Assembly: GCA_964636385.1 (NCBI GenBank)
Contig: CAZWSC010000096.1
Span: 3,593-67,592 of the forward strand
From: an uncultured bacterium
GTDB lineage: Bacteria; Eisenbacteria; RBG-16-71-46; CAIMUX01
Reading direction: 5' to 3'
Length of the DNA: 64,000 nt
Position 1 is the first letter of the stretch, and the number at the start of each line of letters is the position of its first letter. Below the pieces are notes generated by a model. The model did no database searches. It was not told the DNA's origin and saw only the letters and a program-made list of their open reading frames with translations. Positions 46,398 to 62,105 of the stretch are shown here, in pieces. A program made the translations under genes and the position numbers.

Positions 46398-47444
46398 ATG
46401 AGAAGATCCATCAGGAACCTGTGTGCGCTTATCCCTGCTATCACTGCCGTTTTGGCTGCAGGTATCACTCAGGCATCCATCGGCTCTGCGGATGCCGGCG
46501 GCAGCGGCAGTGTAACGGTGTTCGACTCGGCGATGATCCACTTCAACCCGGATACGACCGCGAAGTACTCGCTCCCGAACCTTGACCACGAGGACAAGGG
46601 ACGCATCGCCGTCACACATTCGGTGCTGCCGGATGATGCACCTCCGGGGCGGACTCACGCGCGGTTCACCCTGCACCCGGTGCCGAAGAGCGCCCGGGAG
46701 GTATGGGATCGATGGGATCGCGCAGGCAGTTTTCGCCTCGCCATCGAGGGGGAGCCCGACCTCGAGATCGTGCGCTTCATCACGAGCTACGGCGGCCGGA
46801 CCGATCACGTTGTCGATGTCTCGGAGCTTGCGCCGCTTCTTCGCGGGAAGCGGATCATGAAGGCATTCGTCGACACCTGGTCCAGCCCCGGCTGGCGCGT
46901 CGACTTCGCACTGAACTTCGAGCCGGACAGTCTGTACACGCCGCCCGTGTGGGTACAGCCGGTCTTTTTCACCGACTCCTTCAACGCTCATGACTTTGGT
47001 GACGGCGCGGAGGTCGCCGTGTCGGTGCCGGACGGCCTCTCCCGGGTGGTCCTGCGCTATCTGACCACCGGCCATTGCACAGACGGGAGGGGCGCTGACG
47101 AGTTCGTGCCAAAGGCGAATGTCATCTCGGTGAACGGATTCGTCGTTCATCGCTTCCATCCGTGGCGCGACGACTGCCGCCGCTTCCGCGATCGCAATCC
47201 CTACACAGCGCGCTGGACGACCGGGTACTGGTCCAGCGATTACAGCCGAAGCGGCTGGTGCCCGGGCGACGAAGTCCTTCCCCTGGAACTCGATCTCAGC
47301 GATCACCTTGTCGCAGGCGATCACACGATTCGCTTCGTCATCGAGGATATGCGACCGCGGGATGAGGATGGCCACTACGGATACTGGCGCGTGTCGGCCG
47401 CGCTCGTGGGGTGGGACAGGCCGCCGAACCTCTGGCGGAACTGA
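46398..47444 (+). CDS. Peptide-N4-(N-acetyl-beta-glucosaminyl)asparagine amidase F (PNGase F) family protein, secreted
   Basis: ATG 46398 with signal peptide MRRSIRNLCALIPAITAVLAAGITQASIG. Collinear with Elizabethkingia PNGase F as recalled: VRFITSYGG (cf GRFITPYWVG), VDVSELAPLL...DTWSS.GWRVDF (cf IDVTDFKSLL...ETWLAKGREYSVDF), RYLTTGHC (cf RTTISGWG), SRSGWCPGDEV (cf DRAGWCPGMAV). Confidence 0.7.
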   Translation: MRRSIRNLCALIPAITAVLAAGITQASIGSADAGGSGSVTVFDSAMIHFNPDTTAKYSLPNLDHEDKGRIAVTHSVLPDDAPPGRTHARFTLHPVPKSAREVWDRWDRAGSFRLAIEGEPDLEIVRFITSYGGRTDHVVDVSELAPLLRGKRIMKAFVDTWSSPGWRVDFALNFEPDSLYTPPVWVQPVFFTDSFNAHDFGDGAEVAVSVPDGLSRVVLRYLTTGHCTDGRGADEFVPKANVISVNGFVVHRFHPWRDDCRRFRDRNPYTARWTTGYWSSDYSRSGWCPGDEVLPLELDLSDHLVAGDHTIRFVIEDMRPRDEDGHYGYWRVSAALVGWDRPPNLWRN

Positions 47445-47448
47445 GGCG

Positions 47449-50400
47449 ATGTCCGAGCCTGCGCATGTCCGTCTGGCGGGCTGGTCCTCTTCGCTCGCCG
47501 GGAAGACGATCGAGTACCACAGCCCCTATCCCGGTGTCCGGCGAGCCTTGCTCTGCCGCGCCATGGGGAGTCGGATGGCGATTGCGTGGCGGACGGCGCC
47601 GTGCCCGCGCGCGGCCGTACGGACGTCCGACGCCCCAGTCTCCTTCCTATGGCTGGCCGGCCTCGCGACCGGCAAGGGAGCGCACAGCTTTACGCTGACG
47701 GCCGGCGGGCTAAGGGGAGGCCCCGCTGTCTTCACCTTCCGTACCGACGGGGCGCGGGAGTGGCATGCTGGCTCGCCCTGCGGAGCCAGCCTCTCTTTCA
47801 CAACAACCCTTGTCGACCAGTTCGATGAGCTGTTCGGCATCATGTCCCTGACTCTGCCGGCTGCGGTGCCGTGTTCCGGCAGTCCGCTGGAGATAGCTGT
47901 CGAAGCCGGGGATGCCGGGAGTGATGACTGGTTCATGACATTCGAGCACCCCCTCGCCGATTGGGTGCACGCGGAGGCTGAGCCCGCACTGCTGAACGGC
48001 CCTGCCGGTCTGCTGCAGCCGATTCTCGTCGAGATCAGCAGGCTGGGCGCTCCGACCAGGGTTGCGGTAGAGGTGCGGCGTATGCCCGGACGGGATGCCT
48101 GCGAGGCCGGAGAGGCCGGGGATGCCGGAACCGTAGTGGATGCTGGAGACGCCGTGGATGCCGACGCCATTGCACTCTGCGCAGAAGCCGGCGCAGTGGT
48201 CGAAGACGGGTTCACAATCGCCACAGGCCACAACGAGATCAGGGTGCCCGTTCCCGCGGTCGACTCTCCCGCCGTGACGGGGCTCATTGTAAGGTTCGCA
48301 GATGGCACACCGGATGCGTTGCTGACAGTTGAACAGCGTCCCGTGCGCATGAGGGAGATATGTCTGCTCCCGCATCCACATCTCGACATCGGTTACACGA
48401 ATCACCAGGACGAGGTGGAGAAGCGCCACTGGGCTCACCTGGATGATGCGCTGAGCCTGGCGCACAGTAGCGGCCGGCTCCCGGAGAAGGCTTCCAGCCA
48501 TGCCGGCAGTTCGTGTGAGTGCGCGGGGAAGGTTTTCAGCCTGACCGGCAGTACGGGCCGACATCCACGGGAGGCGCGTTTCCGCTGGAATGTCGAGCAG
48601 CTCTGGGCGGTGGAGAGCTGGTGGCGCCGGGCCTCGCCGGGGCGACGGGAGGAACTCGCCGAGGCCGTTCGCCAGGGCTACATCGGCCTGCAGGCCATGC
48701 TGGCGGGTGTTCTGACAGGCCTCTGCGGTCCTGAGGAACTGCGGCACCTGACCGACTTCAGCCGCGAGCTGTCCCGGGAGATCGGGGTCGTCATCGACAC
48801 AGCGATGATCACCGACATCCCCGGGCAGAGCTGGGGGCTCGTGCCCGCGCTTGCAGAAGCCGGCGTGCGGTATCTGTCCAGCGGACCGAACTACATGCCC
48901 GGCCTTGCCGACGGGGGCGACAGGATCGGCGGCATCCTGAAGGCCTGGGGCGACCGGCCGGTCTGGTGGGAGTCGCAGTCGGGAGAGGAGCGGATCCTCT
49001 TCTGGATGGCGGGCCGCGGATACTCCTGGTTTCACGGCCTGAACGGCGCTTCGATCGATCCTGAACGGCCGCGGCCGCTGATGGAGTATCTTTCACAGCT
49101 CGAAGAGGCGGAGTATCCATACGACCTGATCCAGGTGCGCTACACGATCGGCGGCGACAACGGCCCGCCCGATCCGACGCTGCCGGGCAGCGTGGCCGCC
49201 TGGAACGAGCGCTACGCCTCGCCCCGGCTGCGGATCGCCACGACAGGCGGGATGTTCCGCGAGATGGAGAGGCGCCACGGGAATGAGATACCCACGGTGC
49301 GCGGGGATTTCACGCCGTACTGGGAGGACGGCGCGGCTTCCAGCGCCGCCGAGACGGCGATGAACCGTAACAGCGCAAACCGGCTTGTACAGGCTGAGTC
49401 GTTGTGGCGGAGCCAGGATGCGGAATCGGCGCCTGCGGAGGAGTTCACGGCTGCGTGGCGGAAGGTGGTCCTCTTCAGCGAACACACATGGGGGGCAGCG
49501 GAGAGCGTGAGCGATCCCGACAGCCCGCACGTGCGCGCCCAGTGGGAGTACAAGCGCGGCCTTGCCCTGGATGCTGACCGGATGTCACGGGAGCTTATGG
49601 GTCGGGCGATGGAGACTGCGGCGGGGACGCGACAGGTGGCGGGAAGAGGTCCGGGGGCAGAAGCAGGGCCAGGGGCAGGTGCAGTGCCGGGGGCAGGATC
49701 CGGGGCAGACACAATGCCGGGACCTTCCGGAAGCCCCCGGGGATCCTATGGCCATCTTTCGGGCGCTTGTACAGTCACGGTGTTCAACACACTCGGGTGG
49801 CCGCGCTCGGGCGTTGTCAGGGTGCCGGAGCGAAGATCCGGGGCAGGAGATCGCGTGCTTGATTCTGACGGCAGACCTGTGCCGTCTCAGCGTCTGACGG
49901 GCGGTGAGCTGGCCTTTCTCGCGGAGGATCTGCCTGCCGGAGGTATGCGGCGCTACAGCGTCGTCGCGGGCGGGGCCTTTGCTCCTGCAGCAGGAAGCGA
50001 GGCGGATTGCGATGGTCTGAGCATGCGGAATGGCCGGTTGAGCGCGGCAGTGGATCCTGAGACAGGGGCGGTCTTGAGCCTGATCCGGCTCTCTTCAGGA
50101 GTCGAGCTGGTCGACCGGTCGCTCTGGCCGGGCCTGAACGCCTGGCTCTACATTCCTGGTCGGGATCCGCGGTTGGCCATCGGGATCACCGGGCAGGACA
50201 GCGTCGAGGTGACGATCGGGGAGAGAGGGCCGCTCGTGGCGTCGCTGCGGATCCGGTCCGAAGCTCCCGGGGCGATGATGCTGCAGCGCGAGCTCAGCCT
50301 TGCCGCGGGGAGCGACTGCCTGGAGATCGATAACCTGATCGACAAAATCGCCGTGCGGGAGAAGGAGAGTGTGCACATCGCCTTCCCGTTTCTGGTTCCG

Positions 50401-50799
50401 GGCGGCCTCGTGCAGCTGGACCTGGGCGGCATTGTCGTCAGGCCGGATCTCGACCAGGTCGCCGGCGCCTGCCGCGACTGGTTCTGTGTGCACAGCGGGG
50501 TGGAGGTGGCGAACCGGGACATCGGCGTGATCCTGACAGCGCGCGATGCCCCCCTGGTGGAGATCGGCGCCCTGACGGATGAGATGCCTCGGGCCTGCGG
50601 CAGGCGCGGATGGCGGAGCGGAGTGGGCGAGAGCCAGACCATCTTCTCCTATGTCATGAACAACTACTGGCATACGAACTACAGGGCGGAGCAGGAGGGG
50701 TTGGTCAGGCTGCGTTATTCAGTGCGTCCGTTCAGCGGGAAGGGGCCGGGGCTGACCGCGCAGGGGAGGTCGGATGTACAGCCGCTGCTCGTGTTCTGA
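47449..50799 (+). CDS. GH38-family alpha-mannosidase-like protein with ~330-aa N-terminal extension and internal Gly/Ala/Pro-rich insert
   Basis: GH38 core from about aa 330: LLPHPHLDIGYT (cf HSHxDxGW), RFRWNVEQLWAVESW, DIPGQSWGLVPALAEAGVRY (cf DPFGHSxxxPxLL), TPYWEDGAASSAAET, SEHTWGAAESV, YVMNNYWHTNY. N-terminal region has acidic degenerate repeats (EAGEAGDAGTVVDAGDAVDADA). Low-complexity GPGAEAGPGAGAVPGAGSGA insert at about nt 49650-49720. No signal peptide from ATG 47449. Confidence 0.7.
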   Translation: MSEPAHVRLAGWSSSLAGKTIEYHSPYPGVRRALLCRAMGSRMAIAWRTAPCPRAAVRTSDAPVSFLWLAGLATGKGAHSFTLTAGGLRGGPAVFTFRTDGAREWHAGSPCGASLSFTTTLVDQFDELFGIMSLTLPAAVPCSGSPLEIAVEAGDAGSDDWFMTFEHPLADWVHAEAEPALLNGPAGLLQPILVEISRLGAPTRVAVEVRRMPGRDACEAGEAGDAGTVVDAGDAVDADAIALCAEAGAVVEDGFTIATGHNEIRVPVPAVDSPAVTGLIVRFADGTPDALLTVEQRPVRMREICLLPHPHLDIGYTNHQDEVEKRHWAHLDDALSLAHSSGRLPEKASSHAGSSCECAGKVFSLTGSTGRHPREARFRWNVEQLWAVESWWRRASPGRREELAEAVRQGYIGLQAMLAGVLTGLCGPEELRHLTDFSRELSREIGVVIDTAMITDIPGQSWGLVPALAEAGVRYLSSGPNYMPGLADGGDRIGGILKAWGDRPVWWESQSGEERILFWMAGRGYSWFHGLNGASIDPERPRPLMEYLSQLEEAEYPYDLIQVRYTIGGDNGPPDPTLPGSVAAWNERYASPRLRIATTGGMFREMERRHGNEIPTVRGDFTPYWEDGAASSAAETAMNRNSANRLVQAESLWRSQDAESAPAEEFTAAWRKVVLFSEHTWGAAESVSDPDSPHVRAQWEYKRGLALDADRMSRELMGRAMETAAGTRQVAGRGPGAEAGPGAGAVPGAGSGADTMPGPSGSPRGSYGHLSGACTVTVFNTLGWPRSGVVRVPERRSGAGDRVLDSDGRPVPSQRLTGGELAFLAEDLPAGGMRRYSVVAGGAFAPAAGSEADCDGLSMRNGRLSAAVDPETGAVLSLIRLSSGVELVDRSLWPGLNAWLYIPGRDPRLAIGITGQDSVEVTIGERGPLVASLRIRSEAPGAMMLQRELSLAAGSDCLEIDNLIDKIAVREKESVHIAFPFLVPGGLVQLDLGGIVVRPDLDQVAGACRDWFCVHSGVEVANRDIGVILTARDAPLVEIGALTDEMPRACGRRGWRSGVGESQTIFSYVMNNYWHTNYRAEQEGLVRLRYSVRPFSGKGPGLTAQGRSDVQPLLVF

Positions 50800-53007: not shown

Positions 53008-53015
53008 TGCCGGTC

Positions 53016-56000
53016 CTACGCGCGCTGGAACACAACCTCAACCGTCACGATCTCGTGCGCCGCCAGTTCCACGGCGACCTTCCGTGCGGTGTGGGACAAC
53101 CCATTCAGATGATCGAGCGCCTCTCCCCCGCTCCGGCTTGAGTCGACTGCGGTGCTCATACCGCTGCGCTCACGCGTCTCCGCCATATCCGGTCGTATCA
53201 ACTCCTCCAGCCGTTCCTCGAGCAGGTCCAGCCTCCACGCCTCTGCAACCGGCAGTCCTGCGATCAGCGTCTGTCTCTGCGGCCAGTCGGTCTGATTCCA
53301 GATGCGCACGACCAGGGTGTCTCGCTTTGGATGGCGTCGGATGGCGGTGACTGCGACTTCGGGGTTGCTGATTTCCAGCAGCGACCCGCCTTTCGCGGCG
53401 CCCGCCACAACACCCTGCCGGGTCGGCGGAGGACTCAGGAAAGCGCGGCTGCGCCAGCGTAGATCGCCATTGCCCGGGCCATGCGAACCGCCGGCGTGCG
53501 GCAGAAGGGGAGCGAGCGCATAGCGGAAGAGATGCACGCCCTGCAGTTGAGCATCGGGGGTTGCGATTGTCGGTCCGGCATTCGTGTTGCGGCGCGTCGG
53601 GAAGTCGTCGCGGGAGAGCCAGCCGACACAGCGAATCAGCGTCAGCGCCACGCCGGCGCTTCCGTCAGGATTCCGCACAGGCGCGACTTCCGGAAGGCCG
53701 TCGGCGATCAAGGCCAGTCCCATCCCGGATTTGTCGCGCAGAAGGGAGAACTCCTGCTGCGGATATGTGCCGGGATGCGGCTGCGCCCAATCCTCTCCGG
53801 ATGGAGGCGTCATGGGGCGGGCGGCGAGCGTGAACTGCCCGTCGCTGACAAGCTGATCCGTGCTGACCATGCCACAGAAGACTGAGCGAAGACGGTGGTC
53901 GCAGGCACGGTTGTCAAATCTCGTCGTGATCCCGGCGACATCGGTCCCTGCGGTGAGCCGAACTGTGACCTCCACTGGGCAGGCGACGGTGTCGGAAGAG
54001 CGCGCAGTGCGATTGGCATTCAACGCGCGGGGAGGCGCCAGGTCGAAGCGGGCCGTCAGCGAAGCTGCAAGGCCGGTGTCCTCTGTTACAGCGACCGATC
54101 CCGCGATTCCCTCGGCACTGATCGTGAGGCTCTGCGTACATGGCGACCAGTCGTACTCATCGCCCGCATCCTCGGTGTCCTCAAGCCTGTTCAGGCCTGT
54201 CAGGGAGAGACCGCTGCGCTTGTCCAGCAGATCGATGAGGCCGTTCGGGTGGATGGTTATGCGGAGGCATTCGTTCTCAACCGATGCAGTATCCGTATGT
54301 GAGTCCTGTTGGACGCGGACCAGTGCACGGCCGCGAATAGAGTCGCACCCGGTGGGGACAGGTTCGCCCGCAGCTGCGTCCTGATTACGCTTCCCGACCC
54401 CCTCGGTATCCGGGTCTGCGTCTCCGGCAATGACTCCTCCGACAGCCTTTCCACCAACCTCCCCGTCATCCACTGGGCCATCATCCGTCAGCCTGTACAC
54501 AGTGTGTCCGCAGGCCGGAAGATCGCGCGCCAGAAACTGGATCTCCAGGAAGCAGTCGACAAGGTCGTCATCTCGATCATCCTCCGTCCGTACGATGCGA
54601 TCTGCGAAGGTCTCGAGATATCTGTCCAGGAGTTCCCGCTGCGAGCCGGCACACAACTCGCCGCGGTAGTCGATTCCCCAGAAGCGCTGCAGGAAGCGCC
54701 GGGATTTCACAACCCATGGCACCGGACGGCCATCGGCATCCAGGAGTCTCAGGCGGTCAAACATGTATCGCATCGGCTGCAGTATGACGACCCTGTCGAT
54801 AACTTCGGTGCGGCGCCATGGAAGCGGGTTCGCCACGGTGATGATTGTGTCGCGATCGTCGGCATGCGTGGGGCCGAATGCGGGTGTCAGCCGTTCGAGG
54901 GTGCGCGAGATCAGGTGTTCTCCGGTTTCGCAGATTTCCGAGAAGCGCGTTTCCATGTCCCGGTGCACCTGGTCGATCGAGCAGCCGCCGATGCTGTCGT
55001 GCGCATGGTTCTCCAGCAGCCTGCGCCAGAGAAGCTCCACAAGGTCGGTGCGGGCAGGTGCGCCGTGCATGAAGTACGCATAGGCGAGCAGGGGCTCGAG
55101 CTGATGCGAGAGCAGATCCTGGCACCCGGCGTTGGCCTGCTTGAGCGGCATGCGTGATGACCACACACCGGAGAGGATCAATGCTTCCCTCCCGCCGAGC
55201 AGCTCACCTTGCCATGCAGGGAGTTCGGGCAGCGTGGGTCGAAGGGCGGCGAGGTATTCGCCGAAGCTTCCTTGCAGGAACTCCGTCTCCGGGAAGGCCT
55301 CGCGCAGCGCGGAGAGGATGCGGCCGAGTTCCCGCTGGGGGGGATGGTGATCGCATCCGTTGCTCAGCAGCCACACGTCGCCGCGGCTGCGGGTCTGCAT
55401 CTTCCCGAACAGCGAACGTACGCCCTCTACCGCTGCAGCGGGATCGAGCGCCCGCCTGGTGTGCGCGTGCCACAGCTCCGAGTGGCCGAGTGCCGCCGCA
55501 TTCACGTATCCGTCAACCTGGTTCACTGCCAGGACGCGGCTTCCATCGGGCGCCTCCCACCACCACTCAAGTCCCAGGCCTTCAGCTTCGTCTCCGTGAC
55601 CCCGCCAGTAGATGAAGCTGTCGATCCCCGCCCGGCGCAGGATCTGTGGAAGCTGGGCGATGTGTCCGAAGGTGTCAGGCAGGTATCCGACCTTCTGAAC
55701 GCCCCCGAGGCTTTCACCCACGGCGTGCCCGATCTGCAGGTTCCGTACAGTCGCCTCGCCCGACACGAGGAACTCATCCGGGAGCACATACCACGGACCC
55801 AGCACAAGCTTCCCCGATTCCACCAGGGCCCGCACCCTGGCGGTCTGTCCCGGTCTCGCATCAAGGTAGTCGGAGAGAGCCAGAAGCTGCCCGTCGAGGC
55901 AGAACCGGCGCCAGTCGGGATCGTGCTCGAGGAGATCCAGAACCTCGTCGATCGTCTCCAGGAGTTGTACACGGAATCGCGGGAAGGTCAGGTACCACTC

Positions 56001-56054
56001 GCGGTCCCAGTGTGTGTGGGAGACTATGAACGCCTGTCTTGGGTGCCGGGGCAT
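53016..56054 (-). CDS. GH38-family alpha-mannosidase (cytoplasmic)
   Basis: Start at in-frame ATG 56054, because the track's upstream extension would overlap the GH130 gene and is Arg-rich. Classic GH38 N-terminal motif FIVSHTHWDREWYLTF. LPDTFGHIAQLPQILRRAGIDSF (nucleophile-region WxxDxFGHS type). GGMEHxxxxGC-type blocks. No signal peptide. Confidence 0.85.
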   Translation of the reverse strand: MPRHPRQAFIVSHTHWDREWYLTFPRFRVQLLETIDEVLDLLEHDPDWRRFCLDGQLLALSDYLDARPGQTARVRALVESGKLVLGPWYVLPDEFLVSGEATVRNLQIGHAVGESLGGVQKVGYLPDTFGHIAQLPQILRRAGIDSFIYWRGHGDEAEGLGLEWWWEAPDGSRVLAVNQVDGYVNAAALGHSELWHAHTRRALDPAAAVEGVRSLFGKMQTRSRGDVWLLSNGCDHHPPQRELGRILSALREAFPETEFLQGSFGEYLAALRPTLPELPAWQGELLGGREALILSGVWSSRMPLKQANAGCQDLLSHQLEPLLAYAYFMHGAPARTDLVELLWRRLLENHAHDSIGGCSIDQVHRDMETRFSEICETGEHLISRTLERLTPAFGPTHADDRDTIITVANPLPWRRTEVIDRVVILQPMRYMFDRLRLLDADGRPVPWVVKSRRFLQRFWGIDYRGELCAGSQRELLDRYLETFADRIVRTEDDRDDDLVDCFLEIQFLARDLPACGHTVYRLTDDGPVDDGEVGGKAVGGVIAGDADPDTEGVGKRNQDAAAGEPVPTGCDSIRGRALVRVQQDSHTDTASVENECLRITIHPNGLIDLLDKRSGLSLTGLNRLEDTEDAGDEYDWSPCTQSLTISAEGIAGSVAVTEDTGLAASLTARFDLAPPRALNANRTARSSDTVACPVEVTVRLTAGTDVAGITTRFDNRACDHRLRSVFCGMVSTDQLVSDGQFTLAARPMTPPSGEDWAQPHPGTYPQQEFSLLRDKSGMGLALIADGLPEVAPVRNPDGSAGVALTLIRCVGWLSRDDFPTRRNTNAGPTIATPDAQLQGVHLFRYALAPLLPHAGGSHGPGNGDLRWRSRAFLSPPPTRQGVVAGAAKGGSLLEISNPEVAVTAIRRHPKRDTLVVRIWNQTDWPQRQTLIAGLPVAEAWRLDLLEERLEELIRPDMAETRERSGMSTAVDSSRSGGEALDHLNGLSHTARKVAVELAAHEIVTVEVVFQRA

Positions 56055-56158: not shown

Positions 56159-57172
56159 TCAGTTGCAGGCGGTGACCAGCTCCTGCACCGTGGCAGTGGC
56201 GGCGCCCACGCAGCTGTCGGCCGCGCCGTAGACGACCTCGATTACGTTGTCGGCCGGGAGGAAGCCATCCGGGTCGTGTTCGCCGCAGATCAGGCCGCTG
56301 GGGAAGACCACATTCGGCACCTGGCCTACCATCTCGTAAAGCTCGCGCGGCTCGAGAATGTTGTCCCGTGTCCGCCCAAGCACGACACCTGGATCGTCGA
56401 GCTTCAAGAGCACGGCGCCCGCCTGGTATATGAACGCGTTCAGATGAGTGGCGACTCCGTGATACAGAAGAAGCCATCCATCAGCTGTCTTCACGGGCGG
56501 CGGACCGGGGCCGATCAGCTCGTCCCAGAAGTGGCGGCGACCGGAGAAGACCGGCCCCTCGCTCTTCCAGCGCACAAGGTCTTCCGAGCTGAGCAACTCA
56601 ATCGCATCGCCGCTTGTCACACCGGTTGTCGAGTGGACAGTGTTCGGCCGCTCCAGCAGGAGATACCTGCCGCCTGTCTTCTCGGGGAACAGAACACCGT
56701 TGCGGACGTCCACATCGCCTGTCACGGACAGAAGCTCGAGGCGGGAGAAGTCGTCGGTTGTGAAGATGCCGACCCGGCAGCCGCTGTTTGTGTCGATGGA
56801 ACATGTGACGAACCAGCGTCCCTCCAGCCTTGTGATCCGCGGATCGTAGATGTGGTGGATCCCGCCGGCCGGCCTTCCCTGGTCCCCGGCTTTCGCGGTT
56901 TGCGGCTCGATGCGGGCACTCTCTCCCAGCCTGTCCAGTCCGCTGATCTGGACAATCCGGGGCTCGACGCTGAACTCCCCGCGGTCGTTGCCGAACGCCC
57001 GCATGAAGATGGTGCGGCGGCCGCGGGTCTGCACACGCAGGAGCAGGAGCGGCTGTTCCGTTTCCAGACGGCAGGCGCCAGGGTTGAATACGCTTGTTGC
57101 GTCGACCAGGCAGGGTGGCACATCCGGGATGTCGTGGCGTGTCAGCAGTGGGCCGTTACGGCGACGGAGCAT
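56159..57172 (-). CDS. GH130-family beta-1,4-mannoside phosphorylase (mannosyl-GlcNAc / mannooligosaccharide phosphorylase-like)
   Basis: 337 aa. GH130 five-bladed-propeller motifs FNPGA, IYDPRITRLEGRWFV, NGVLFPEKTGGRYLLLERP and LLYHGV. No signal peptide. Confidence 0.8.
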   Translation of the reverse strand: MLRRRNGPLLTRHDIPDVPPCLVDATSVFNPGACRLETEQPLLLLRVQTRGRRTIFMRAFGNDRGEFSVEPRIVQISGLDRLGESARIEPQTAKAGDQGRPAGGIHHIYDPRITRLEGRWFVTCSIDTNSGCRVGIFTTDDFSRLELLSVTGDVDVRNGVLFPEKTGGRYLLLERPNTVHSTTGVTSGDAIELLSSEDLVRWKSEGPVFSGRRHFWDELIGPGPPPVKTADGWLLLYHGVATHLNAFIYQAGAVLLKLDDPGVVLGRTRDNILEPRELYEMVGQVPNVVFPSGLICGEHDPDGFLPADNVIEVVYGAADSCVGAATATVQELVTACN

Positions 57173-57217: not shown

Positions 57218-59146
57218 CTACTCCCGCACAATGCCGTCATCGTCAGGATCCTGTTCCGTTTCGCGGAGACGGGCGAACATCCGGCGCAGATCACGGATGC
57301 CGCCGATGGTGAACCAGACGAGCACGATGCCGGCCATGGTGAACTGCACACCCATGAACCAGCGCCAGAACCGCGTCCAGCTCGCATCATCGACGCTGTG
57401 TGTAAGGTTGTAGATCGTGCCTGTGACGAAGATCGTGAACCAGGCGAATGTCCAGCAGTAGGTGGCTATGTAGAAGATCTTGTCCCGGCGTGAGAACTCG
57501 CGGGTGAACATGAAGATCTTCGCCGCCCGGGAGACGACCCCTTCGCCTTCAACGCGTTCCGATGCGACCTGCCAGCGGCCGCGGTGCAGGAGGCGGTCCA
57601 GGTTGAACTCGTGCCCCGGGCCGAGGAGCGAGACCATGGCATAGACGATGAGCGATGCACCCATCGACAGCGCCCAGAACTGCTGGCCATTGATGGGGAA
57701 TTCGTCGTAAATCTGGTGGGCGACGATTCCCCCGACGGCGATCCCGGATCCGGTCAGCATAGCCGCCCAGGCCGCAGGAGTGGTGCCGCGCTTCCAGTAG
57801 AGCCCGCCGATTATGATCGCCCCGGAGCCGCCGGCGAAGATGGCGCCCGTGATCGCGAAGAAGAGGAAGATGTACTGGTTCTGCTGGAAGAGCAGGGAGA
57901 AGAGAAAGATGAAGAGGGCCACTCCCAGGATCGAGAGCCTCAGCGCACGCAGGTGTGTCTTCTGATCCAGGGGCCTGCTGCCGCGAAGAGGAAGGAGCAC
58001 ATCCTGCACGAAGATCGACCCCCACGAATGCAGGTACGTGTTATGGGTCGAGATGAAGGCGGCCAGCATCACCGCGGCGAAAGCGCCGAGAAGACCATGC
58101 GGGAGGATCTGCACCAGCACAAGGGGGGCGCGCATCTGGCTTCGGATCGCCTCGCGCTCCACTCCGGCCATTTGCAGGTTCACCCCCTCGGCGACTGCCG
58201 CGAAGTCGGGATGGTGGAGGATCGTGTAGATGACAATCGGCACGAAGACAAGGAATAGATTCTGAGGGGCGAACTTCCACATACCCAGGGCTTCGCCGAT
58301 CTTGGCCTCGTGCGCGCTGCTTGCGGAGGCGTTGTACGCCTGGGTGCCCTGCCAGCTCATCTTGCCGTATATGAGGCCCGCGATCCCGATGAGGAAGTAC
58401 CAGAAGTTGAAGTCCTTGACGTGGCTTGTCTTGAAGGGGTTTATCAGAGACGCGTTCTCGGGCGCCATGGCAAGGGCCCCGAATACCTGGTCCCAGGTCA
58501 CGACCTTCCAGATCAGCCAGAAGCACATGAAGACGAACACCACGTTGACAAAGGCGCCCTGGAAGAAGTCGGTCACTATGACCGAGATCTGACCTCCCTT
58601 GAACACGAAGAAGAGGGCGATCAACAGCAGCAACGCCATCAGCAGCGGGTAGACAGGAACAGCAAGCGGGCCGAGGGGGATGTGGGACGGGAACCCGCAG
58701 TAGTGGATGAAGAAGCGGGCGCCGACCGCCGGGAATATGCCGAAGTTGATGATCCCCGAGATCCAGCAGACGGTTCCCGCGAAGATGCGGAAGTTGCGGG
58801 AGTACCTGCGCTCGAAGAACTCGGCGAGGGTCAGGCAGCGGGTCTGCCTGAAACGGTAGATGACCCAGCCGCTGAGTGTGATGACCATGATGACGACGGA
58901 GGTGGTCATCCCCCACCAGGACATCGAGAACCCGGCGATAAAGTTCATCTCGAGGTTGCCGACGATCGTTATCGCGCCGAGCCCTGCAATTCCGCTCGCG
59001 ATGCTGACCAGGTAGCGGCCCGCGCAGCGCCGCGCCGCGAGAAAGTCCGCAACAGATCGTGTACGGCCGCTGCTGCGGATTACGCCCGTCAGAAGGAGGG
59101 CGAGCATGCCCAGGATGATGAGCCAGTCCCAGAGTATGAGGTTCAC
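57218..59146 (-). CDS. Sodium:solute symporter (SSF) family transporter
   Basis: 642 aa, about 13-14 TM helices, SSF-like topology. GTG start. 4-nt overlap with the stop of the downstream CBM9-like gene. Sits between GH130 and CBM9-like genes. Confidence 0.7.
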   Translation of the reverse strand: MNLILWDWLIILGMLALLLTGVIRSSGRTRSVADFLAARRCAGRYLVSIASGIAGLGAITIVGNLEMNFIAGFSMSWWGMTTSVVIMVITLSGWVIYRFRQTRCLTLAEFFERRYSRNFRIFAGTVCWISGIINFGIFPAVGARFFIHYCGFPSHIPLGPLAVPVYPLLMALLLLIALFFVFKGGQISVIVTDFFQGAFVNVVFVFMCFWLIWKVVTWDQVFGALAMAPENASLINPFKTSHVKDFNFWYFLIGIAGLIYGKMSWQGTQAYNASASSAHEAKIGEALGMWKFAPQNLFLVFVPIVIYTILHHPDFAAVAEGVNLQMAGVEREAIRSQMRAPLVLVQILPHGLLGAFAAVMLAAFISTHNTYLHSWGSIFVQDVLLPLRGSRPLDQKTHLRALRLSILGVALFIFLFSLLFQQNQYIFLFFAITGAIFAGGSGAIIIGGLYWKRGTTPAAWAAMLTGSGIAVGGIVAHQIYDEFPINGQQFWALSMGASLIVYAMVSLLGPGHEFNLDRLLHRGRWQVASERVEGEGVVSRAAKIFMFTREFSRRDKIFYIATYCWTFAWFTIFVTGTIYNLTHSVDDASWTRFWRWFMGVQFTMAGIVLVWFTIGGIRDLRRMFARLRETEQDPDDDGIVRE

Positions 59147-60258
59147 GGGCAGGATCCCTCACATGAGAGGCGGCCTTCGTGGTCCACGGACCATCTTGCT
59201 CCGCCTGCCGTGTGCAGTGTCGCGTGAAAGACGTGGGTGCCGGCGTCCATCTCGAGACGAAGCGAGGACAGCTCGCTGCGCACGGCAGGAGGCAGTGTGG
59301 CCAGATGCGCAAGGCCGGCCGCAAACCATCCGTACTCGTCCCGGAAGAGACGCTGTGCGTAGTAGAGCGGCATCAGGAGCCCTGCGCCCGGCCGGGCCAG
59401 GGGGCGCGGGTCGGCTGGCGTGTCTTCCGGATCGCCCATGAACGTCACGAACCCCCACCGCTCCGGCATGTGCATCGCGACAAGGCCTTGTGGTGACCAG
59501 ACCCAGTTGTCCTCGCCGATCCAGCCGCGTCCCTCCACGGGAGTCTTCACGTAGCGGTCATCATCGATGATGTGCTCCCACTGCACGCGCGAGAAGTTGA
59601 TCCGCCATGTGTCGCCCGGCCCGGGAGGGGATGGCCGCGATCCGGCAAGCTCCTTCAGGGCAGCCCAGGGGATCGCGATCTCGACCGTCCACCCGGTGTC
59701 TTCGTCGGATGGGTCGTCCAGTGTGCCGTCTACGTGTACGGCGGTCCGCAGGCCAGCGATGTCCCATCCGTTGATGGCCGGGCCTCCGTCACGGTAGGGC
59801 CGTACGAGGAGGAGGTCCCACTCCGTGCCCAGGGCGTTGATCTCGAGTTCGCCGTAGAGATGGTTGCTGCCGTCGGGGTCGATGAAGACCTCGAAATCGT
59901 TGTCGTGGAAGAGAACGGCATCGCGCTCGGTCAGTGTGCCCCATACGTGCGGCTCCTCCATCTCGGCTGCGATGTACAGGGCGTGCTGATCCCACAGCAT
60001 CCTGGCGCGCGTGCGGTAACGCGGCGTCACGAGGCGCGCCTCGCCTTCGATATCGACGAACTCCTCCGTCCAGGGCGCCAACTCCCAGACGGCATCGTCA
60101 AGACGCCCGTCGATGACCGGCGGTGTGGGAGTGGGCGGGCACTGGTACCAGCGGGGATTCCAGGGCGTGGTGGGATACTCGAAGGCGGAGGCTGTGGAGA
60201 CCGCCGCCGGGAGGAGAAGCAGCGTCACCAGGAGCCTCACCCGGCCTGAAAGCTTCAT
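59143..60258 (-). CDS. Secreted carbohydrate-binding CBM9-like/DOMON-like domain protein
   Basis: ATG 60258 gives signal peptide MKLSGRVRLLVTLLLLPAAVSTASA. Segment TPPVIDGRLDDAVWELAPWTEEFVDIEG matches the start of CBM9-like family 9 carbohydrate-binding modules. No catalytic motif. Confidence 0.5.
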   Translation of the reverse strand: MKLSGRVRLLVTLLLLPAAVSTASAFEYPTTPWNPRWYQCPPTPTPPVIDGRLDDAVWELAPWTEEFVDIEGEARLVTPRYRTRARMLWDQHALYIAAEMEEPHVWGTLTERDAVLFHDNDFEVFIDPDGSNHLYGELEINALGTEWDLLLVRPYRDGGPAINGWDIAGLRTAVHVDGTLDDPSDEDTGWTVEIAIPWAALKELAGSRPSPPGPGDTWRINFSRVQWEHIIDDDRYVKTPVEGRGWIGEDNWVWSPQGLVAMHMPERWGFVTFMGDPEDTPADPRPLARPGAGLLMPLYYAQRLFRDEYGWFAAGLAHLATLPPAVRSELSSLRLEMDAGTHVFHATLHTAGGARWSVDHEGRLSCEGSCP

Positions 60259-60461
60259 CGGGCGTTCCCCGCAGGTTGAGGGTGCATTATGGGTGCCGAT
60301 TGTAGGGGCACGGTTCAGGGGAGGAAAGCAGAACCTGCCGGGAGCCAGTCCGGGGTTGCGGTGCCCCGTTGTCCCACCCACCATGGCCGTGGTCTTCGGG
60401 ATCCGGCGTGTGCCGGGCAACCCGATGGCACATCGGGCAGATTGCTGGAGGCACCCTTAAG

Positions 60462-62105
60462 ATGAGTGGGCAGGAACCAACCGTCATACCTCAGCCGGTA
60501 CGGATGACCCGGAGAGGCGGCACATTCGTCATCCACGAGCGAACCGTCGTGACGGCCTCGGGCGCTGCCGTGTCTGAAGCGCGGAAGCTGATCGAGGCGC
60601 TGGCCCCTGCCATGGGATTCGAGCTTCGGCTTAAGGTTGATGCTGCTGACGCCGATCCGCCCGACGGGTTCATCCGCCTTCGCCTGGGCGATCCGGCAGC
60701 CCGCCTGGCGGATACTGCGGAGGATGGCTTCCCGGTGGAATGTGGTCTGCGCAACCGATCCCTGGCTTCCGAGGGGTATCGCCTCGAGGTGACTACCGGG
60801 CGGATCGATCTGGAAGCACCCGGCGCGGCTGGACTCCACAACGGCATTCAGACAATCCGCCAACTCCTGCCGGCCGGGGTTTTCGGGAGCGGGCCGGCCG
60901 CCGGTGTGCAGTGGACCGTTCCGTGCGTCTCCATCCGGGATCGCCCGCGCTTCGGGTGGCGGGGCCTGATGCTGGATACGGTCCGCCACTTTCTGGCTGT
61001 CGACGACATCCTATCCTTCATCGACTGGATGGCGATGCACAAGCTCAACAGGCTTCAGCTGCACCTCACAGACGACCAGGGCTGGCGCGTGGAGATCCGC
61101 AGGTACCCCCGCCTCACGGAGGTCGGTGCTTGGCGGGACGAGACGCCTGTCGGCCACGCATCGAGTCTGCCGAAGGTGTATGATGGCCGCAGGCATGGCG
61201 GCTGTTACACACAGGAAGACATACACAGGATCGTGGCGCACGCGGCGCGGCGGCACATTGTCATCGTGCCCGAGATCGAGATGCCGGGTCACGCCCGCGC
61301 CGCCATCGCCGCATACCCGCATCTTGGCGTGTTCCCGGATGAACAGCACGGACTGCGTCCCTGGACCGAATGGGGGATCAGCGAGCAGATCTTCTCGCCA
61401 CGCAGGGAGGCGATCGACTTCCTGCAGGATGTGCTGCTCGAGGTCATGGAGCTCTTCCCGGGCGAGTTCATCCACATCGGTGGGGACGAGGCGGTCAAGG
61501 ATCACTGGAAACGGAGCGCGGAAGTGCAGGCGCAGATCCGAGAACTCGGGCTCGCCGGCGAGGAGGAACTGCAGAGCTGGTTCATCCGGCAGATGGATGC
61601 CTTCCTCACCTCGCACGGACGAAGGCTGATCGGCTGGGACGAGATTCTGGAAGGCGGACTGGCGCCCGGGGCCGCCGTCATGTCATGGCGCGGTGAGGAC
61701 GGCGGGATCACAGCCGCGCGTGCCGGACACGACGTCGTGATGGCGCCCGGGCGGCCGCTATACCTCGATCACTACCAGGGGCCGGAGGTTTCCGAGCCGC
61801 TTGCGATAGGGGGGATGAACACCCTGGAGGACATCCATCGCTACGAGCCGATTCCCGGCGTGATATGCGGGACCGAAGCCGGGCGGGTTCTGGGGGCGCA
61901 GGCGCAGCTGTGGAGCGAGTACATCCCGGACTTCCGGCACCTGCAGTACATGGCCTTCCCGCGCGCGTGCGCCTTCGCGGAGGCTGTGTGGTCTGCGCAG
62001 GATCGTCCCGGACTCGACGACTTCATCCGCAGGTTGAGGGTGCACACCCTGCGCCTGAAGAGCCTGGGTGTACACTACCGGCAGGATCCCGGACGACGCC
62101 TCTGA
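60462..62105 (+). CDS. GH20-family beta-N-acetylhexosaminidase
   Basis: In-frame ATG 60462. GH20 catalytic-domain motifs RFGWRGLMLDTVRHF, HLHLTDDQGWRVEI, IVPEIEMPGHA and HIGGDEAV. No obvious signal peptide. Confidence 0.8.
   Translation: MSGQEPTVIPQPVRMTRRGGTFVIHERTVVTASGAAVSEARKLIEALAPAMGFELRLKVDAADADPPDGFIRLRLGDPAARLADTAEDGFPVECGLRNRSLASEGYRLEVTTGRIDLEAPGAAGLHNGIQTIRQLLPAGVFGSGPAAGVQWTVPCVSIRDRPRFGWRGLMLDTVRHFLAVDDILSFIDWMAMHKLNRLQLHLTDDQGWRVEIRRYPRLTEVGAWRDETPVGHASSLPKVYDGRRHGGCYTQEDIHRIVAHAARRHIVIVPEIEMPGHARAAIAAYPHLGVFPDEQHGLRPWTEWGISEQIFSPRREAIDFLQDVLLEVMELFPGEFIHIGGDEAVKDHWKRSAEVQAQIRELGLAGEEELQSWFIRQMDAFLTSHGRRLIGWDEILEGGLAPGAAVMSWRGEDGGITAARAGHDVVMAPGRPLYLDHYQGPEVSEPLAIGGMNTLEDIHRYEPIPGVICGTEAGRVLGAQAQLWSEYIPDFRHLQYMAFPRACAFAEAVWSAQDRPGLDDFIRRLRVHTLRLKSLGVHYRQDPGRRL

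What the first reader, a model, noticed from the sequence alone, without database searches (positions are those of the whole stretch)
46398..62105. Non-PUL N-glycan harvesting locus: PNGase F + 2x GH38 + GH130 + SSF importer + CBM9-like + GH20
Within 16 kb sit all functions needed to strip and catabolise protein N-glycans. There is a secreted PNGase F-family amidase (46398-47444, signal peptide), a secreted CBM9-like binding protein, an SSF symporter, and three enzymes without signal peptides (GH38 alpha-mannosidase, GH130 beta-1,4-mannosyl-GlcNAc-type phosphorylase, GH20 hexosaminidase). A second, extended GH38 is also present. This layout suggests extracellular release of whole N-glycans followed by import and cytoplasmic trimming down to the Man-beta-1,4-GlcNAc core, which GH130 phosphorolyses. 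The GH130-centred N-glycan pathway is established for Bacteroides, where it is embedded in SusC/SusD PULs with GH18 ENGases. Here there is no SusC/SusD, the releasing enzyme is a PNGase rather than an ENGase, and the genome bears T9SS-type tails typical of a different FCB lineage. That makes it a differently organised, probably undescribed version of the system. An RNase II gene and a small hypothetical gene interrupt the locus at 50.9-53.0 kb.
Basis: partly seen in the sequence, partly recalled or inferred. Interest (0 to 1): 0.8.

Follow-up and report, generated by a model that had tools for sequence, protein, structure and literature searches.

The report
Conserved non-PUL N-glycan scavenging gene cluster
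An uncultivated sediment bacterium carries a gene set for cutting sugar chains off proteins, importing them and digesting them inside the cell, and the same set recurs as a tight operon in several little-known bacterial phyla, apparently undescribed.

Summary
All seven family calls are correct at the stated coordinates: PNGase F, two GH38s, GH130, an SSF transporter, a CBM9-like protein and GH20. Only the PNGase and the CBM9-like protein have N-terminal signal peptides.

The gene set is not a chance neighbourhood. I anchored a search on the PNGase in 80 species-representative genomes (Eisenbacteria, Zixibacteria, Ignavibacteriales, Latescibacterota and others). Of 37 loci with full flanks, 20 carry GH130 + CBM9-like + SSF within 10 kb, on the same strand. 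They fall into two colinear orders. This window is a rearranged version of those operons.

The best reading is an N-glycan scavenging pathway without SusC/SusD. An exported amidase frees the glycan. An exported CBM9-fold protein and an SSF symporter probably import it. Cytoplasmic GH38s, a GH130 beta-1,4-mannoside phosphorylase and GH20 finish the breakdown.

- The PNGase has no T9SS tail, so it may be periplasmic rather than extracellular.
- PNGase next to GH130 is already described in Bacteroides PULs.
- Whether the GH130 acts on mannan or on Man-GlcNAc cannot be decided from sequence.
- Homologues of the "extended GH38" are normally secreted; here the signal peptide is missing.

I rate it a new variant of a known kind, of moderate interest.

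The parts
46398..47444 (+). Exported PNGase F-family amidase, 348 aa, short two-domain form without the N-terminal bowl-like domain of PNGase F-II.
   Evidence: Pfam N-glycanase_C 7.5e-34 and N-glycanase_N 1.6e-6. Nearest solved structures: PNGase F-II 4r4z 4.5e-31, B. fragilis 3ks7 1.4e-30, 7zgn 5e-27, PNGase F 1pnf 1.3e-8. PNGase F residues D60, E206, W120, R248 and W251 align to D104, E235, W161, R284 and W287; E118 aligns to D159. All are invariant in 33 homologues. N-terminal signal peptide by inspection and hydrophobicity.
47449..50799 (+). Divergent long GH38 alpha-mannosidase-like protein ('GH38L'), 1116 aa. It starts 4 nt after the PNGase stop. It has a beta-sandwich N-terminal extension of about 300 aa and no signal peptide in this lineage.
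   Evidence: Pfam GH38 N-domain 2.1e-7. No PDB hit by sequence. The AlphaFold model (pLDDT 83.7) matches only GH38 alpha-mannosidases in the top 40 Foldseek hits (5kbp 8e-29, 2wyi, Ams1, dGMII). H309-x-H311-x-D313 and D456 are invariant in 33 homologues. Most homologues carry a signal peptide before the WLxGY..YHSPYP motif; the window protein, P0243 and P0244 do not.
53016..56054 (-). Cytoplasmic GH38 alpha-mannosidase, 1012 aa, of the Streptococcus/Enterococcus type. Last gene of the minus-strand operon.
   Evidence: Pfam GH38N 1.1e-35, Alpha-mann_mid 5e-14, GH38C2 1e-5. PDB: E. faecalis 3lvt/5kbp 7e-97, S. pyogenes SpGH38 2wyh 2.7e-86. The catalytic motif HTHWDREW begins at residue 13, leaving no room for a signal peptide.
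56159..57172 (-). Cytoplasmic GH130 beta-1,4-mannoside phosphorylase, 337 aa.
   Evidence: Pfam 1.2e-39. Best solved relatives are the former GH130_2 members TM1225 5.5e-43, Uhgb_MP 7e-33 and RaMP2 3e-32. Beta-1,2 enzymes score about 1e-24 and GH130_1 1e-14. Y109-D110, R157, R175, H238 and D319 correspond to Uhgb_MP Y103-D104, R150, R168, H231 and D304. These are the criteria of PMC7660257 and PMC4264767. No signal peptide.
57218..59146 (-). Inner-membrane sodium:solute symporter family transporter, 642 aa. Its start overlaps the stop of the CBM9-like gene by 4 nt.
   Evidence: Pfam SSF 4.5e-21, TIGR00813 4e-22. Nearest solved structures are SGLT1/2 at only 1e-6. Twelve or more hydrophobic segments. 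It follows the CBM9-like gene in all 31 PNGase-anchored loci that contain that gene.
59143..60258 (-). Exported stand-alone CBM9-fold protein, 371 aa, first gene of the minus-strand operon. Residues about 35-280 form the CBM9-like beta-sandwich; residues 285-367 form a small extra helix/strand domain.
   Evidence: Pfam CBM9_1 2.4e-11. The AlphaFold model (pLDDT 89.5) best matches CBM9 of T. maritima Xyn10A (1i82, 1.8e-10), C. kristjanssonii CBM9 (7nwn) and BACUNI_03838 (4jpq). The family has at least 8000 members, with over 50% identity across phyla and about 60 invariant residues. Signal peptide present.
60259..60461 (.). 203-bp divergent intergenic region between the CBM9-like operon and GH20. 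It presumably holds the promoters; this is an inference.
   Evidence: Follows from the corrected start codons. No regulatory element was tested.
60462..62105 (+). Cytoplasmic GH20 beta-N-acetylhexosaminidase, 547 aa.
   Evidence: Pfam GH20 6.5e-113 and GH20b 1.8e-20. PDB 3rcn 1.1e-135, B. thetaiotaomicron 6q63 1.2e-125. No signal peptide. GH20 directly follows the PNGase in 28 of 80 PNGase-anchored loci, usually with no room for a signal peptide.

Best explanation
The locus encodes a pathway for scavenging Asn-linked (N-) glycans that does not use the SusC/SusD machinery.

Shown by sequence:
- An exported PNGase F-family amidase with an intact catalytic site.
- An exported CBM9-fold protein whose gene overlaps that of an SSF inner-membrane symporter.
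- Four cytoplasmic enzymes: two GH38 alpha-mannosidases, a GH130 beta-1,4-mannoside phosphorylase with the full phosphate-binding set, and a GH20 hexosaminidase.
- Conservation of this gene set as single-strand operons in several FCB candidate phyla.

Inferred steps:
1. Glycoproteins or glycopeptides, perhaps made by the tailed secreted M1 peptidases encoded upstream, are deglycosylated by the PNGase. This happens in the periplasm or at the cell surface and yields a free glycan ending in reducing GlcNAc-GlcNAc.
2. The CBM9-like protein binds that glycan. CBM9 modules are known reducing-end binders. The SSF symporter then moves the glycan, or a trimmed core, into the cytoplasm.
3. The GH38s remove the alpha-mannoses.
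4. GH130 phosphorolyses Man-beta-1,4-GlcNAc(-GlcNAc) to mannose-1-phosphate, saving one ATP.
5. GH20 splits the remaining chitobiose.

In sister lineages a Tat-exported glycosylasparaginase replaces the PNGase in the same operon. This points to the Asn-GlcNAc linkage as the common target.
For: - Family and active-site evidence for each protein.
- Localisation pattern in the window and in homologous operons.
- Synteny from the PNGase anchor: of 80 PNGase-anchored loci, 36 have at least one of GH130/CBM9/SSF and 27 have all three. Among the 37 with at least 8 kb on both sides, 20 have all three, always co-oriented.
- Two orders recur. Order A is GH130 > CBM9 > SSF > (GH38) > PNGase > GH20. Order B is CBM9 > SSF > PNGase > GH130 > GH38.
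- CBM9-anchored loci show CBM9-GH130-GH38-Asparaginase_2, or CBM9-SSF-GH130-GH38-Asparaginase_2, with a Tat-type signal on the asparaginase.
- PNGase-GH20 pairs occur even where the rest is absent.
- One protein fuses a signal peptide, a CBM9-like domain (56% identical) and the GH38L type.
- A POT peptide transporter and gamma-glutamyltranspeptidase flank the operon in L013.
- The GH130-centred N-glycan pathway and its ATP-saving logic are established for Bacteroides (PMC4264767). GH38, GH20 and GH130 roles on the N-glycan core are reviewed in PMC10154615.
Against: - No enzyme activity or transport has been measured for any member of these clades.
- GH130 acceptor specificity cannot be read from sequence. 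The loop aligned to Uhgb_MP His174 differs.
- SSF transporters are known for small solutes, and the nearest solved relatives are only at 1e-6.
- No outer-membrane uptake component is in the locus.
- 14 of 37 fully flanked PNGase loci have none of the partner genes.
- Only about a fifth of CBM9-like loci with usable flanks show the module. Others sit next to unrelated genes such as beta-lactamase-family, GH5-like and S9 peptidase genes.
- In this window the two halves are on opposite strands and are separated by an RNase II-family gene.
- No downstream sugar-phosphate or GlcNAc catabolic genes are in the window.
Confidence: 0.7

Rival explanations
1. Same pathway, but the glycan is trimmed outside the cytoplasm. 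The SSF then imports only a small product (mannose, GlcNAc, Man-GlcNAc or Man-GlcNAc2), not a whole N-glycan. The cytoplasmic GH38s would handle only the last one or two alpha-mannoses.
For: - SSF transporters are known for small solutes, and their only solved relatives are SGLTs.
- Most GH38L homologues carry signal peptides, so alpha-mannose trimming is periplasmic in most lineages.
- Some sister loci have exported GH20s with F5/8 type C domains.
- In Bacteroides the cytoplasmic GH130 receives only the Man-GlcNAc disaccharide (PMC4264767).
Against: - In this window, and in most operons examined, every alpha-mannosidase in the locus lacks a signal peptide.
- Two or even three cytoplasmic GH38 types per operon is a lot for a single residual mannose.
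Confidence: 0.3
2. The CBM9-like protein is not a binding partner of the transporter. It is an unrecognised enzyme, for example one acting on the chitobiose core or on mannosides, or a general periplasmic glycan chaperone used in many pathways.
For: - Conservation is unusually high for a binding module: over 50% identity across phyla and about 60 invariant residues, many acidic.
- It occurs without an adjacent SSF and in unrelated contexts.
- It has an extra C-terminal domain of unknown function.
Against: - The fold search finds only non-catalytic CBM9 modules and DOMON-like subunits.
- Many of the conserved acidic residues could be the calcium sites known from CBM9 (own knowledge, not tested here).
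- The 4-nt gene overlap with the SSF recurs in all 31 PNGase-anchored loci that have it.
Confidence: 0.12
3. The minus-strand operon serves another mannoside, such as beta-mannan oligosaccharides, fungal mannan or mannosylglycerate-type solutes. The PNGase is an unrelated neighbour.
For: - The closest solved GH130 is TM1225, which sits in a mannan cluster (own knowledge; similarity).
- The best NCBIfam hit of the GH38 is mannosylglycerate hydrolase (462 bits, cut-off 1138).
- The best NCBIfam hits of the GH130 are mannobiose phosphorylases, all far below cut-off.
Against: - No GH26/GH5 mannanase or epimerase is in any of the loci.
- In order-B loci the PNGase lies inside the operon, between SSF and GH130.
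- GH20 and glycosylasparaginase are recurrent members.
- All NCBIfam scores are far below their cut-offs.
Confidence: 0.07
4. Chance juxtaposition of carbohydrate-active genes in one genome, with no functional unit.
For: In this window the genes lie on two strands and are interrupted by an RNase II-family gene and a small ORF.
Against: 20 of 37 fully flanked loci from different candidate phyla keep GH130 + CBM9 + SSF co-oriented within 10 kb of the PNGase. My rough estimate for a family present about once per 4-Mb genome is around 1% by chance.
Confidence: 0.02

Closest known systems
[quoted passage not shown] 2013, as summarised in PMC4264767)
   Same: - A cytoplasmic GH130 phosphorylase finishes N-glycan core breakdown and yields mannose-1-phosphate without ATP.
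- An inner-membrane transporter and hexosaminidase/mannosidase genes are clustered with it.
   Different: - In Bacteroides the glycan is released by GH18 endoglycosidases at the surface, taken up through SusC/SusD and trimmed in the periplasm. Only the disaccharide reaches the cytoplasm.
- Here there is no SusC/SusD and release is by a PNGase F-type amidase, which leaves GlcNAc2 at the reducing end.
- Here the alpha-mannosidases and GH20 are cytoplasmic, and the transporter is an SSF paired with an exported CBM9-fold protein.
Bacteroides group-1/group-2 PNGase loci for plant and mammalian N-glycans (Crouch et al. 2022, PMC9522356)
   Same: - A PNGase F-family amidase with a type I signal peptide is the releasing enzyme.
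- In B. helcogenes and B. vulgatus it sits next to GH130, GH92, GH29 and GH3 genes.
- Those authors proposed periplasmic action on glycopeptides.
   Different: - Those loci are PULs with SusC/SusD, and the exo-glycosidases are periplasmic.
- The group-2 and PNGase F-II enzymes carry an extra N-terminal bowl-like domain.
- The protein here is the short two-domain form of about 350 aa, from a clade with no characterised member.
Gram-positive N-glycan systems with cytoplasmic GH38 (Streptococcus pyogenes SpGH38, Enterococcus faecalis, Bifidobacterium longum Bl_Man38)
   Same: - An oligosaccharide carrying alpha-mannose is imported and trimmed in the cytoplasm by GH38.
- The window's 53016-56054 product is most similar to these enzymes.
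   Different: - Those systems use GH18/GH85 endoglycosidases and ABC transporters with solute-binding proteins.
- They cleave the beta-mannoside by hydrolysis (GH2, GH5_18) rather than GH130 phosphorolysis (PMC10154615).
Eukaryotic cytosolic free-oligosaccharide pathway (Png1, then ENGase, then Man2C1/Ams1 GH38)
   Same: - A PNGase step is followed by cytosolic GH38 demannosylation.
- Order-A operons contain an Ams1-like GH38.
   Different: - The eukaryotic PNGase is an unrelated transglutaminase-fold enzyme, and the pathway serves quality control, not nutrition.
- This comparison rests on my own knowledge and is an analogy only.

Membership tests
PNGase F family (Pfam PF09112 + PF09113) | Both beta-sandwich domains are recognised above the curated cut-offs. 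| tested here: met
   N-glycanase_C scores 117 bits (cut-off 25). N-glycanase_N scores 28.4 bits (cut-off 22.4), covering only the last third of the model.
PNGase F family (Pfam PF09112 + PF09113) | Catalytic Asp60 and Glu206 and substrate-binding Trp120, Arg248 and Trp251 of PNGase F. The residue roles come from my own knowledge of Kuhn et al. 1995. | tested here: met
   They align to D104, E235, W161, R284 and W287 (the reference sequence was verified as 1PNF). All are invariant in 33 homologues. Glu118 is replaced by an invariant Asp159.
PNGase F family (Pfam PF09112 + PF09113) | Amidase activity releasing intact N-glycans from Asn. | not testable with these tools
   No member of this clade of about 350 aa has been characterised, as far as the literature searches show.
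GH130 beta-1,4-mannoside phosphorylases (former GH130_2 / meta-node C2) | Proton donor Asp104, phosphate-binding Arg168 and His231, no catalytic base, no signal peptide (PMC7660257). | tested here: met
   D110, R175 and H238 are aligned with Uhgb_MP. No signal peptide. Criteria quoted.
GH130 beta-1,4-mannoside phosphorylases (former GH130_2 / meta-node C2) | The Tyr103/Arg150 pair, which marks beta-1,4 linkage specificity, and Asp304. | tested here: met
   Y109, R157 and D319. The Arg59 equivalent is probably R46 in LLLLRV, but no alignment covered it.
GH130 beta-1,4-mannoside phosphorylases (former GH130_2 / meta-node C2) | Sequence similarity to characterised C2 members at the network threshold (E 1e-70, about 63% identity). 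| tested here: inconclusive
   Best phmmer E-values are 5.5e-43 (TM1225) and 7e-33 (Uhgb_MP). It is nearest to C2 but probably outside it by that criterion. The E-value scales are not identical.
GH130 beta-1,4-mannoside phosphorylases (former GH130_2 / meta-node C2) | Man-beta-1,4-GlcNAc (N-glycan) rather than mannan acceptor specificity. | not testable with these tools
   The two specificities do not separate by sequence even at 1e-90 (PMC7660257). Only the genomic context argues for N-glycan.
GH38 alpha-mannosidase (53016-56054) | GH38 N-terminal catalytic domain with the metal-binding HxHxD motif, and the middle domain. | tested here: met
   Pfam 1.1e-35 and 5e-14. HTHWD is at residues 13-17. 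E = 7e-97 to E. faecalis GH38.
GH38 alpha-mannosidase (47449-50799, long form) | GH38 fold and catalytic motif. | tested here: met
   Pfam N-domain at 31 bits (cut-off 25); the other domains are below cut-off. The fold search returns only GH38 enzymes in the top 40. H309, H311, D313 and D456 are invariant. Activity is untested.
GH20 beta-N-acetylhexosaminidase | GH20 catalytic domain and GH20b domain. | tested here: met
   378 bits and 74 bits. 1.1e-135 to 3rcn.
CBM9 carbohydrate-binding module | CBM9 beta-sandwich fold. | tested here: met
   Pfam CBM9_1 at 44 bits (cut-off 23.4). Foldseek 1.8e-10 with target TM-score 0.75 to 1i82.
CBM9 carbohydrate-binding module | Binding of the reducing ends of glycans. 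| not testable with these tools
   The property of TmCBM9-2 is from my own knowledge. Ligand residues were not compared.
Bacteroidota polysaccharide utilisation locus (PUL) | An adjacent SusC-like TonB-dependent transporter and SusD-like lipoprotein. | tested here: not met
   Every ORF of 46398-62105 is assigned and none is SusC/SusD-like. No such genes appear in the flanks of L013 or L073, nor in the gene tables of L008, L009, L091 and L092.
T9SS cargo | C-terminal sorting domain on the exported proteins of the locus. | tested here: not met
   The shared tail of about 90 aa is on four other proteins of the window. It is absent from the PNGase (348 aa, two domains only) and from the CBM9-like protein.

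The most novel reading that the evidence does not exclude
The exported CBM9-fold protein and the SSF symporter together form a binding-protein-assisted secondary transporter for free N-glycan oligosaccharides. The CBM9-like protein would capture the reducing GlcNAc-GlcNAc end created by the PNGase and hand the glycan to the symporter. That would be a previously unknown class of oligosaccharide importer. It would also give a physiological role to a protein family of more than 8000 members and to bacterial PNGase F-type enzymes outside Bacteroidota.
Probability: 0.2. Interest if true: 0.75.

Novelty: new variant of a known kind. Interest (0 to 1): 0.55.

Why it matters
- PNGase F has been a laboratory workhorse for decades, yet the natural role of such enzymes is documented only for a few gut Bacteroides.
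- This gene set ties a large uncharacterised clade of short PNGase F-like enzymes to a complete, conserved catabolic operon in uncultivated sediment, soil and sludge phyla (Eisenbacteria, Zixibacteria, Ignavibacteriales, Latescibacterota).
- It suggests that Asn-linked glycans of eukaryotic detritus are a regular substrate for these protein-degrading bacteria. It also suggests a SusC/SusD-independent route exists in diderm FCB bacteria.
- It offers concrete candidates for new tools: PNGases, N-glycan-core binding proteins and a possible oligosaccharide symporter.

Tried and rejected
- NCBIfam gave no family-level names for the PNGase, GH38L, CBM9-like protein or GH20. For GH38 and GH130 it gave only far-below-cut-off hits (mannosylglycerate hydrolase, mannobiose phosphorylases), so it was not used for function.
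- I tried to settle GH130 specificity by subfamily. This was rejected because the literature shows the two specificities are inseparable by sequence. The BT1033 sequence and the Nihira 2013 paper were not available.
- I tested whether the second SSF next to the TonB-dependent receptor at 2258-6173 is a paralogue that could supply outer-membrane uptake. It is unrelated.
- I considered Tat 'hitch-hiking' of the signal-less GH38L with the PNGase, whose N-terminus is MRRS. I dropped the idea because PNGase homologues have ordinary Sec-type signal peptides with no conserved twin-arginine motif.
- I looked for glycosylasparaginase, sugar kinases, NagA/NagB and PMM/PMI in the rest of the window. None was found.
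- I checked whether the CBM9-like family is specific to this pathway. It is not; many members sit in unrelated neighbourhoods.
- Promoter and terminator scans were not run, because the consensus does not apply to FCB-type promoters.
- Lineage was not determined with marker genes. It rests only on names attached to homologues. The two closest GTDB loci carry an automatic 'Fibrobacteraceae' label.

Full report
**Source and lineage**

The window has about 64% G+C. Over 46124-64000 it is 99.7% identical to JGI metagenome contig 3300001533 MLSed_10000011, which is 198.6 kb long. Two Logan contigs also match.

Names attached to homologues point to Candidatus Eisenbacteria and neighbouring FCB candidate phyla. 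Lineage was not tested with marker genes.

**Checking the observation**

Pfam confirms every family call at the stated places.

| Coordinates | Strand | Family | Pfam evidence |
|---|---|---|---|
| 46398-47444 | + | PNGase F | N-glycanase_C 7.5e-34, N-glycanase_N 1.6e-6 |
| 47449-50799 | + | weak GH38 | N-domain 2.1e-7 |
| 50888-51283 | - | 131-aa ORF | no hit |
| 51388-53007 | + | RNB exoribonuclease | 5e-80 |
| 53016-56054 | - | GH38 | 1.1e-35 |
| 56159-57172 | - | GH130 | 1.2e-39 |
| 57218-59146 | - | SSF | 4.5e-21 |
| 59143-60258 | - | CBM9_1 | 2.4e-11 |
| 60462-62105 | + | GH20 | 6.5e-113 |

The JGI gene calls on the near-identical contig agree with these genes.

Only the PNGase and the CBM9-like protein have N-terminal hydrophobic segments of signal-peptide type (2.52 and 2.71). 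GH38L, GH38, GH130 and GH20 score 0.57, 0.51, 1.28 and 1.13 and do not.

Gene spacing suggests three transcription units:
- PNGase > GH38L, with a 4-nt gap.
- CBM9-like > SSF (4-nt overlap) > GH130 (45-nt gap) > GH38 (104-nt gap) on the minus strand.
- GH20, divergent from the CBM9-like gene across 203 bp.

No SusC/SusD-like gene is in the locus.

The 'T9SS-type tails' exist as a shared C-terminal domain of about 90 aa on four other proteins of the window, including two M1 peptidases. No locus protein carries it.

**The individual proteins**

*PNGase.* It is closest to PNGase F-II and the Bacteroides PNGases in the C-terminal domain (4r4z 4.5e-31, 3ks7, 7zgn). It is related to PNGase F itself over both domains (1pnf 1.3e-8).
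- I aligned it with the PNGase F sequence, which I first verified as identical to 1PNF.
- D60, E206, W120, R248 and W251 correspond to D104, E235, W161, R284 and W287. E118 corresponds to D159.
- All of these are invariant in 33 homologues.
- It is a short form of about 350 aa without the bowl-like domain. At least about 1000 relatives exist, all with Sec-type signal peptides.

*GH130.* It is most similar to the former GH130_2 enzymes TM1225, Uhgb_MP and RaMP2.
- It keeps the proton donor, the phosphate-binding residues and the Tyr/Arg pair that the literature uses to predict a cytoplasmic beta-1,4-mannoside phosphorylase.
- The same literature shows that Man-GlcNAc and mannooligosaccharide enzymes cannot be told apart by sequence. 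The acceptor therefore rests on context alone.

*GH38 (53016-56054).* It is of the cytoplasmic Streptococcus/Enterococcus type (7e-97).

*GH20.* It is a standard GH20.

*SSF.* It is far from any solved transporter; SGLT1/2 match at 1e-6.

*CBM9-like protein.* It models confidently (pLDDT 89.5).
- Its first 250 or so residues match CBM9 modules (1i82, 7nwn, 4jpq).
- A small extra C-terminal domain has no match.
- The family is very large and strikingly conserved.

*Long GH38 (GH38L).* It has no PDB match by sequence.
- Its model (pLDDT 83.7) matches only GH38 alpha-mannosidases.
- The HxHxD motif and a candidate nucleophile Asp are invariant.
- Its homologues of about 1100 aa (Aminicenantes, Acidobacteriota, Bacteroidota and others) mostly begin with a signal peptide followed by a conserved WLxGY..YHSPYP motif.
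- The window protein and its two nearest relatives begin directly at that motif.
- One metagenomic protein fuses a signal peptide, a CBM9-like domain (56% identical to the window's) and this GH38 type.

**Is the neighbourhood conserved?**

I scanned one genome per GTDB species with a PNGase alignment. This gave 80 loci from Eisenbacteria, Zixibacteria, Ignavibacteriales, Latescibacterota, Gemmatimonadota and unlabelled MAGs. I then compared the window's proteins with these loci by tblastn.

| Set | Loci | GH130 + CBM9-like + SSF | None of the partners |
|---|---|---|---|
| All loci | 80 | 27 | 37 (many on short contigs) |
| At least 8 kb on both sides | 37 | 20 | 14 |

In every positive case the partner genes are on the PNGase strand.

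Two colinear orders recur:
- Order A: GH130 > (GH38) > CBM9 > SSF > (Ams1-like GH38) > PNGase > GH20.
- Order B: CBM9 > SSF > PNGase > GH130 > GH38.

PNGase-GH20 pairs occur even where the rest is missing.

The nearest relatives, L010 and L011, keep PNGase > GH38L as in the window.

In these operons GH130, GH38 and GH20 again have no room for signal peptides.

The flanks of L013 and L073 hold no TonB or SusC/SusD genes. L013 has a POT peptide transporter and a gamma-glutamyltranspeptidase next to the operon.

Starting instead from the CBM9-like protein gives these arrangements:
- GH38-GH20-CBM9-SSF.
- GH38-CBM9-SSF-GH130-GH38.
- CBM9-GH130-GH38-Asparaginase_2.
- CBM9-SSF-GH130-GH38-Asparaginase_2, in the closest metagenomic relative.

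The Asparaginase_2 proteins (glycosylasparaginase family) carry Tat-type signals. An exported enzyme that cuts the Asn-GlcNAc bond is thus a recurrent, interchangeable member of the module. This is the strongest contextual argument that the substrate is Asn-linked glycan.

There is a limit to this. Of about 30 CBM9-anchored metagenome loci with usable flanks, only about a fifth show the module. Others sit beside unrelated genes. The CBM9-like family is therefore broader than this pathway.

**Mechanism**

Shown:
- The families and their catalytic residues.
- The export pattern.
- The conserved co-orientation of the genes.

Inferred:
1. The PNGase frees glycans from glycoproteins or glycopeptides outside the cytoplasm. 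With a plain Sec signal and no tail or lipobox, it may well be periplasmic. The same was argued for the Bacteroides PNGases (PMC9522356).
2. The CBM9-like protein binds the product. CBM9 modules are known reducing-end binders (my own knowledge), and the PNGase creates a reducing GlcNAc-GlcNAc end.
3. The SSF imports it.
4. The cytoplasmic GH38s remove alpha-mannose. GH130 phosphorolyses the beta-mannoside. GH20 splits chitobiose.

All alpha-mannosidases of the locus are cytoplasmic, so the imported species should still carry alpha-mannose. That would make the SSF an oligosaccharide importer, which is unprecedented and unproven.

The alternative is trimming by enzymes encoded elsewhere followed by import of a small core. 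This remains open. How the substrate crosses the outer membrane is unknown.

**Comparison with what is known**

- The GH130-centred N-glycan pathway is established in B. thetaiotaomicron (PMC4264767).
- PNGases next to GH130, GH92, GH29 and GH3 are described in Bacteroides PULs (PMC9522356).
- Cytoplasmic GH38 trimming is known from Gram-positive systems (PMC10154615; similarity).
- The differences here are the absence of SusC/SusD, the CBM9-like + SSF pair, the cytoplasmic placement of all exo-glycosidases, the short PNGase clade and the phyla involved.
- Full-text searches combining GH130 with PNGase, CBM9 or symporter, or N-glycan with GH130, GH38 and MAGs, found no description of this module.

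**Verdict**

This is a new variant of a known kind of system. It is conserved across several candidate phyla and includes an interesting uncharacterised pair, the CBM9-like protein and the SSF.

Interest 0.55.

Noticed in passing
window 53321-53355 (C-terminal part of the GH38 gene 53016-56054): The otherwise 99.7% identical JGI contig (L001) lacks 35 nt here and has a burst of mismatches just before. Its gene is therefore frameshifted and called as 949 aa, against 1012 aa in the window. This is strain variation or an assembly error.
   Followed up: partly
window 47449-47520; proteins P0243, P0244 versus P0246-P0360: The long GH38 has lost the signal peptide that most of its homologues (more than 100) carry. 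This implies a lineage-specific move of an alpha-mannosidase from the periplasm to the cytoplasm, or an unrecognised export route.
   Followed up: partly
L090 8921-12964 (protein P0356): A single 1347-aa protein fuses a signal peptide, a CBM9-like domain (56% identical to the window's, without the C-terminal extra domain) and the long GH38 type. Gamma-glutamyltranspeptidase and an S9/tricorn-like peptidase lie next to it. It was seen on one contig only.
   Followed up: partly
L009 14959-16041, L091 15070-16086, L093: In sister operons a glycosylasparaginase-family protein (Asparaginase_2) with a twin-arginine signal (SRRDFL / TRREFL) takes the place of the PNGase. Of the three loci, L009 and L091 have no adjacent SSF. 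The PNGase and the asparaginase may be alternative entry enzymes.
   Followed up: partly
L140, L145, L150, L163 (CBM9-anchored metagenome loci): Close homologues of the CBM9-like protein (42-46% identity) sit next to unrelated genes: beta-lactamase-family serine hydrolases, a GH5-like protein, an S9 peptidase and GHL10. The family has roles beyond this pathway.
   Followed up: partly
window 175-1902, 23036-25798, 25972-28902, 40927-42954: Four proteins share a homologous C-terminal tail of about 90 aa (FlgD_ig; weak Por_Secre_tail). They are two large M1 peptidases, an FG-GAP protein and one other. With the M32 carboxypeptidase (11094-12641) and HtrA (29453-31165), this suggests a secreted-protease lifestyle that would supply glycopeptides.
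   Followed up: partly
window 43078-46125 (-): A 1015-aa exported protein combines an FGE-sulfatase (formylglycine-generating-enzyme-like) domain with a PQQ-type beta-propeller. It is divergently adjacent to the PNGase. Its function is unknown, and it recurs next to the PNGase in only one of 80 other loci (a partial match in L052).
   Followed up: no
window 2258-6173: A TonB-dependent receptor is followed by a second SSF transporter that is unrelated to the one in the locus (BLASTP E 0.002).
   Followed up: yes
window 56159-57172, residues 176-188 of GH130: The loop after the phosphate-binding Arg175 (NTVHSTTGVTSGD) is longer than in TM1225 and Uhgb_MP. The position aligned to Uhgb_MP His174 is a Val, so the +1 subsite may differ from that of characterised enzymes.
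   Followed up: no
L013 12945-14423 and 18063-20324: A POT-family peptide transporter directly follows the GH20 of an order-A operon, with a gamma-glutamyltranspeptidase nearby. This links the glycan module to peptide uptake.
   Followed up: no
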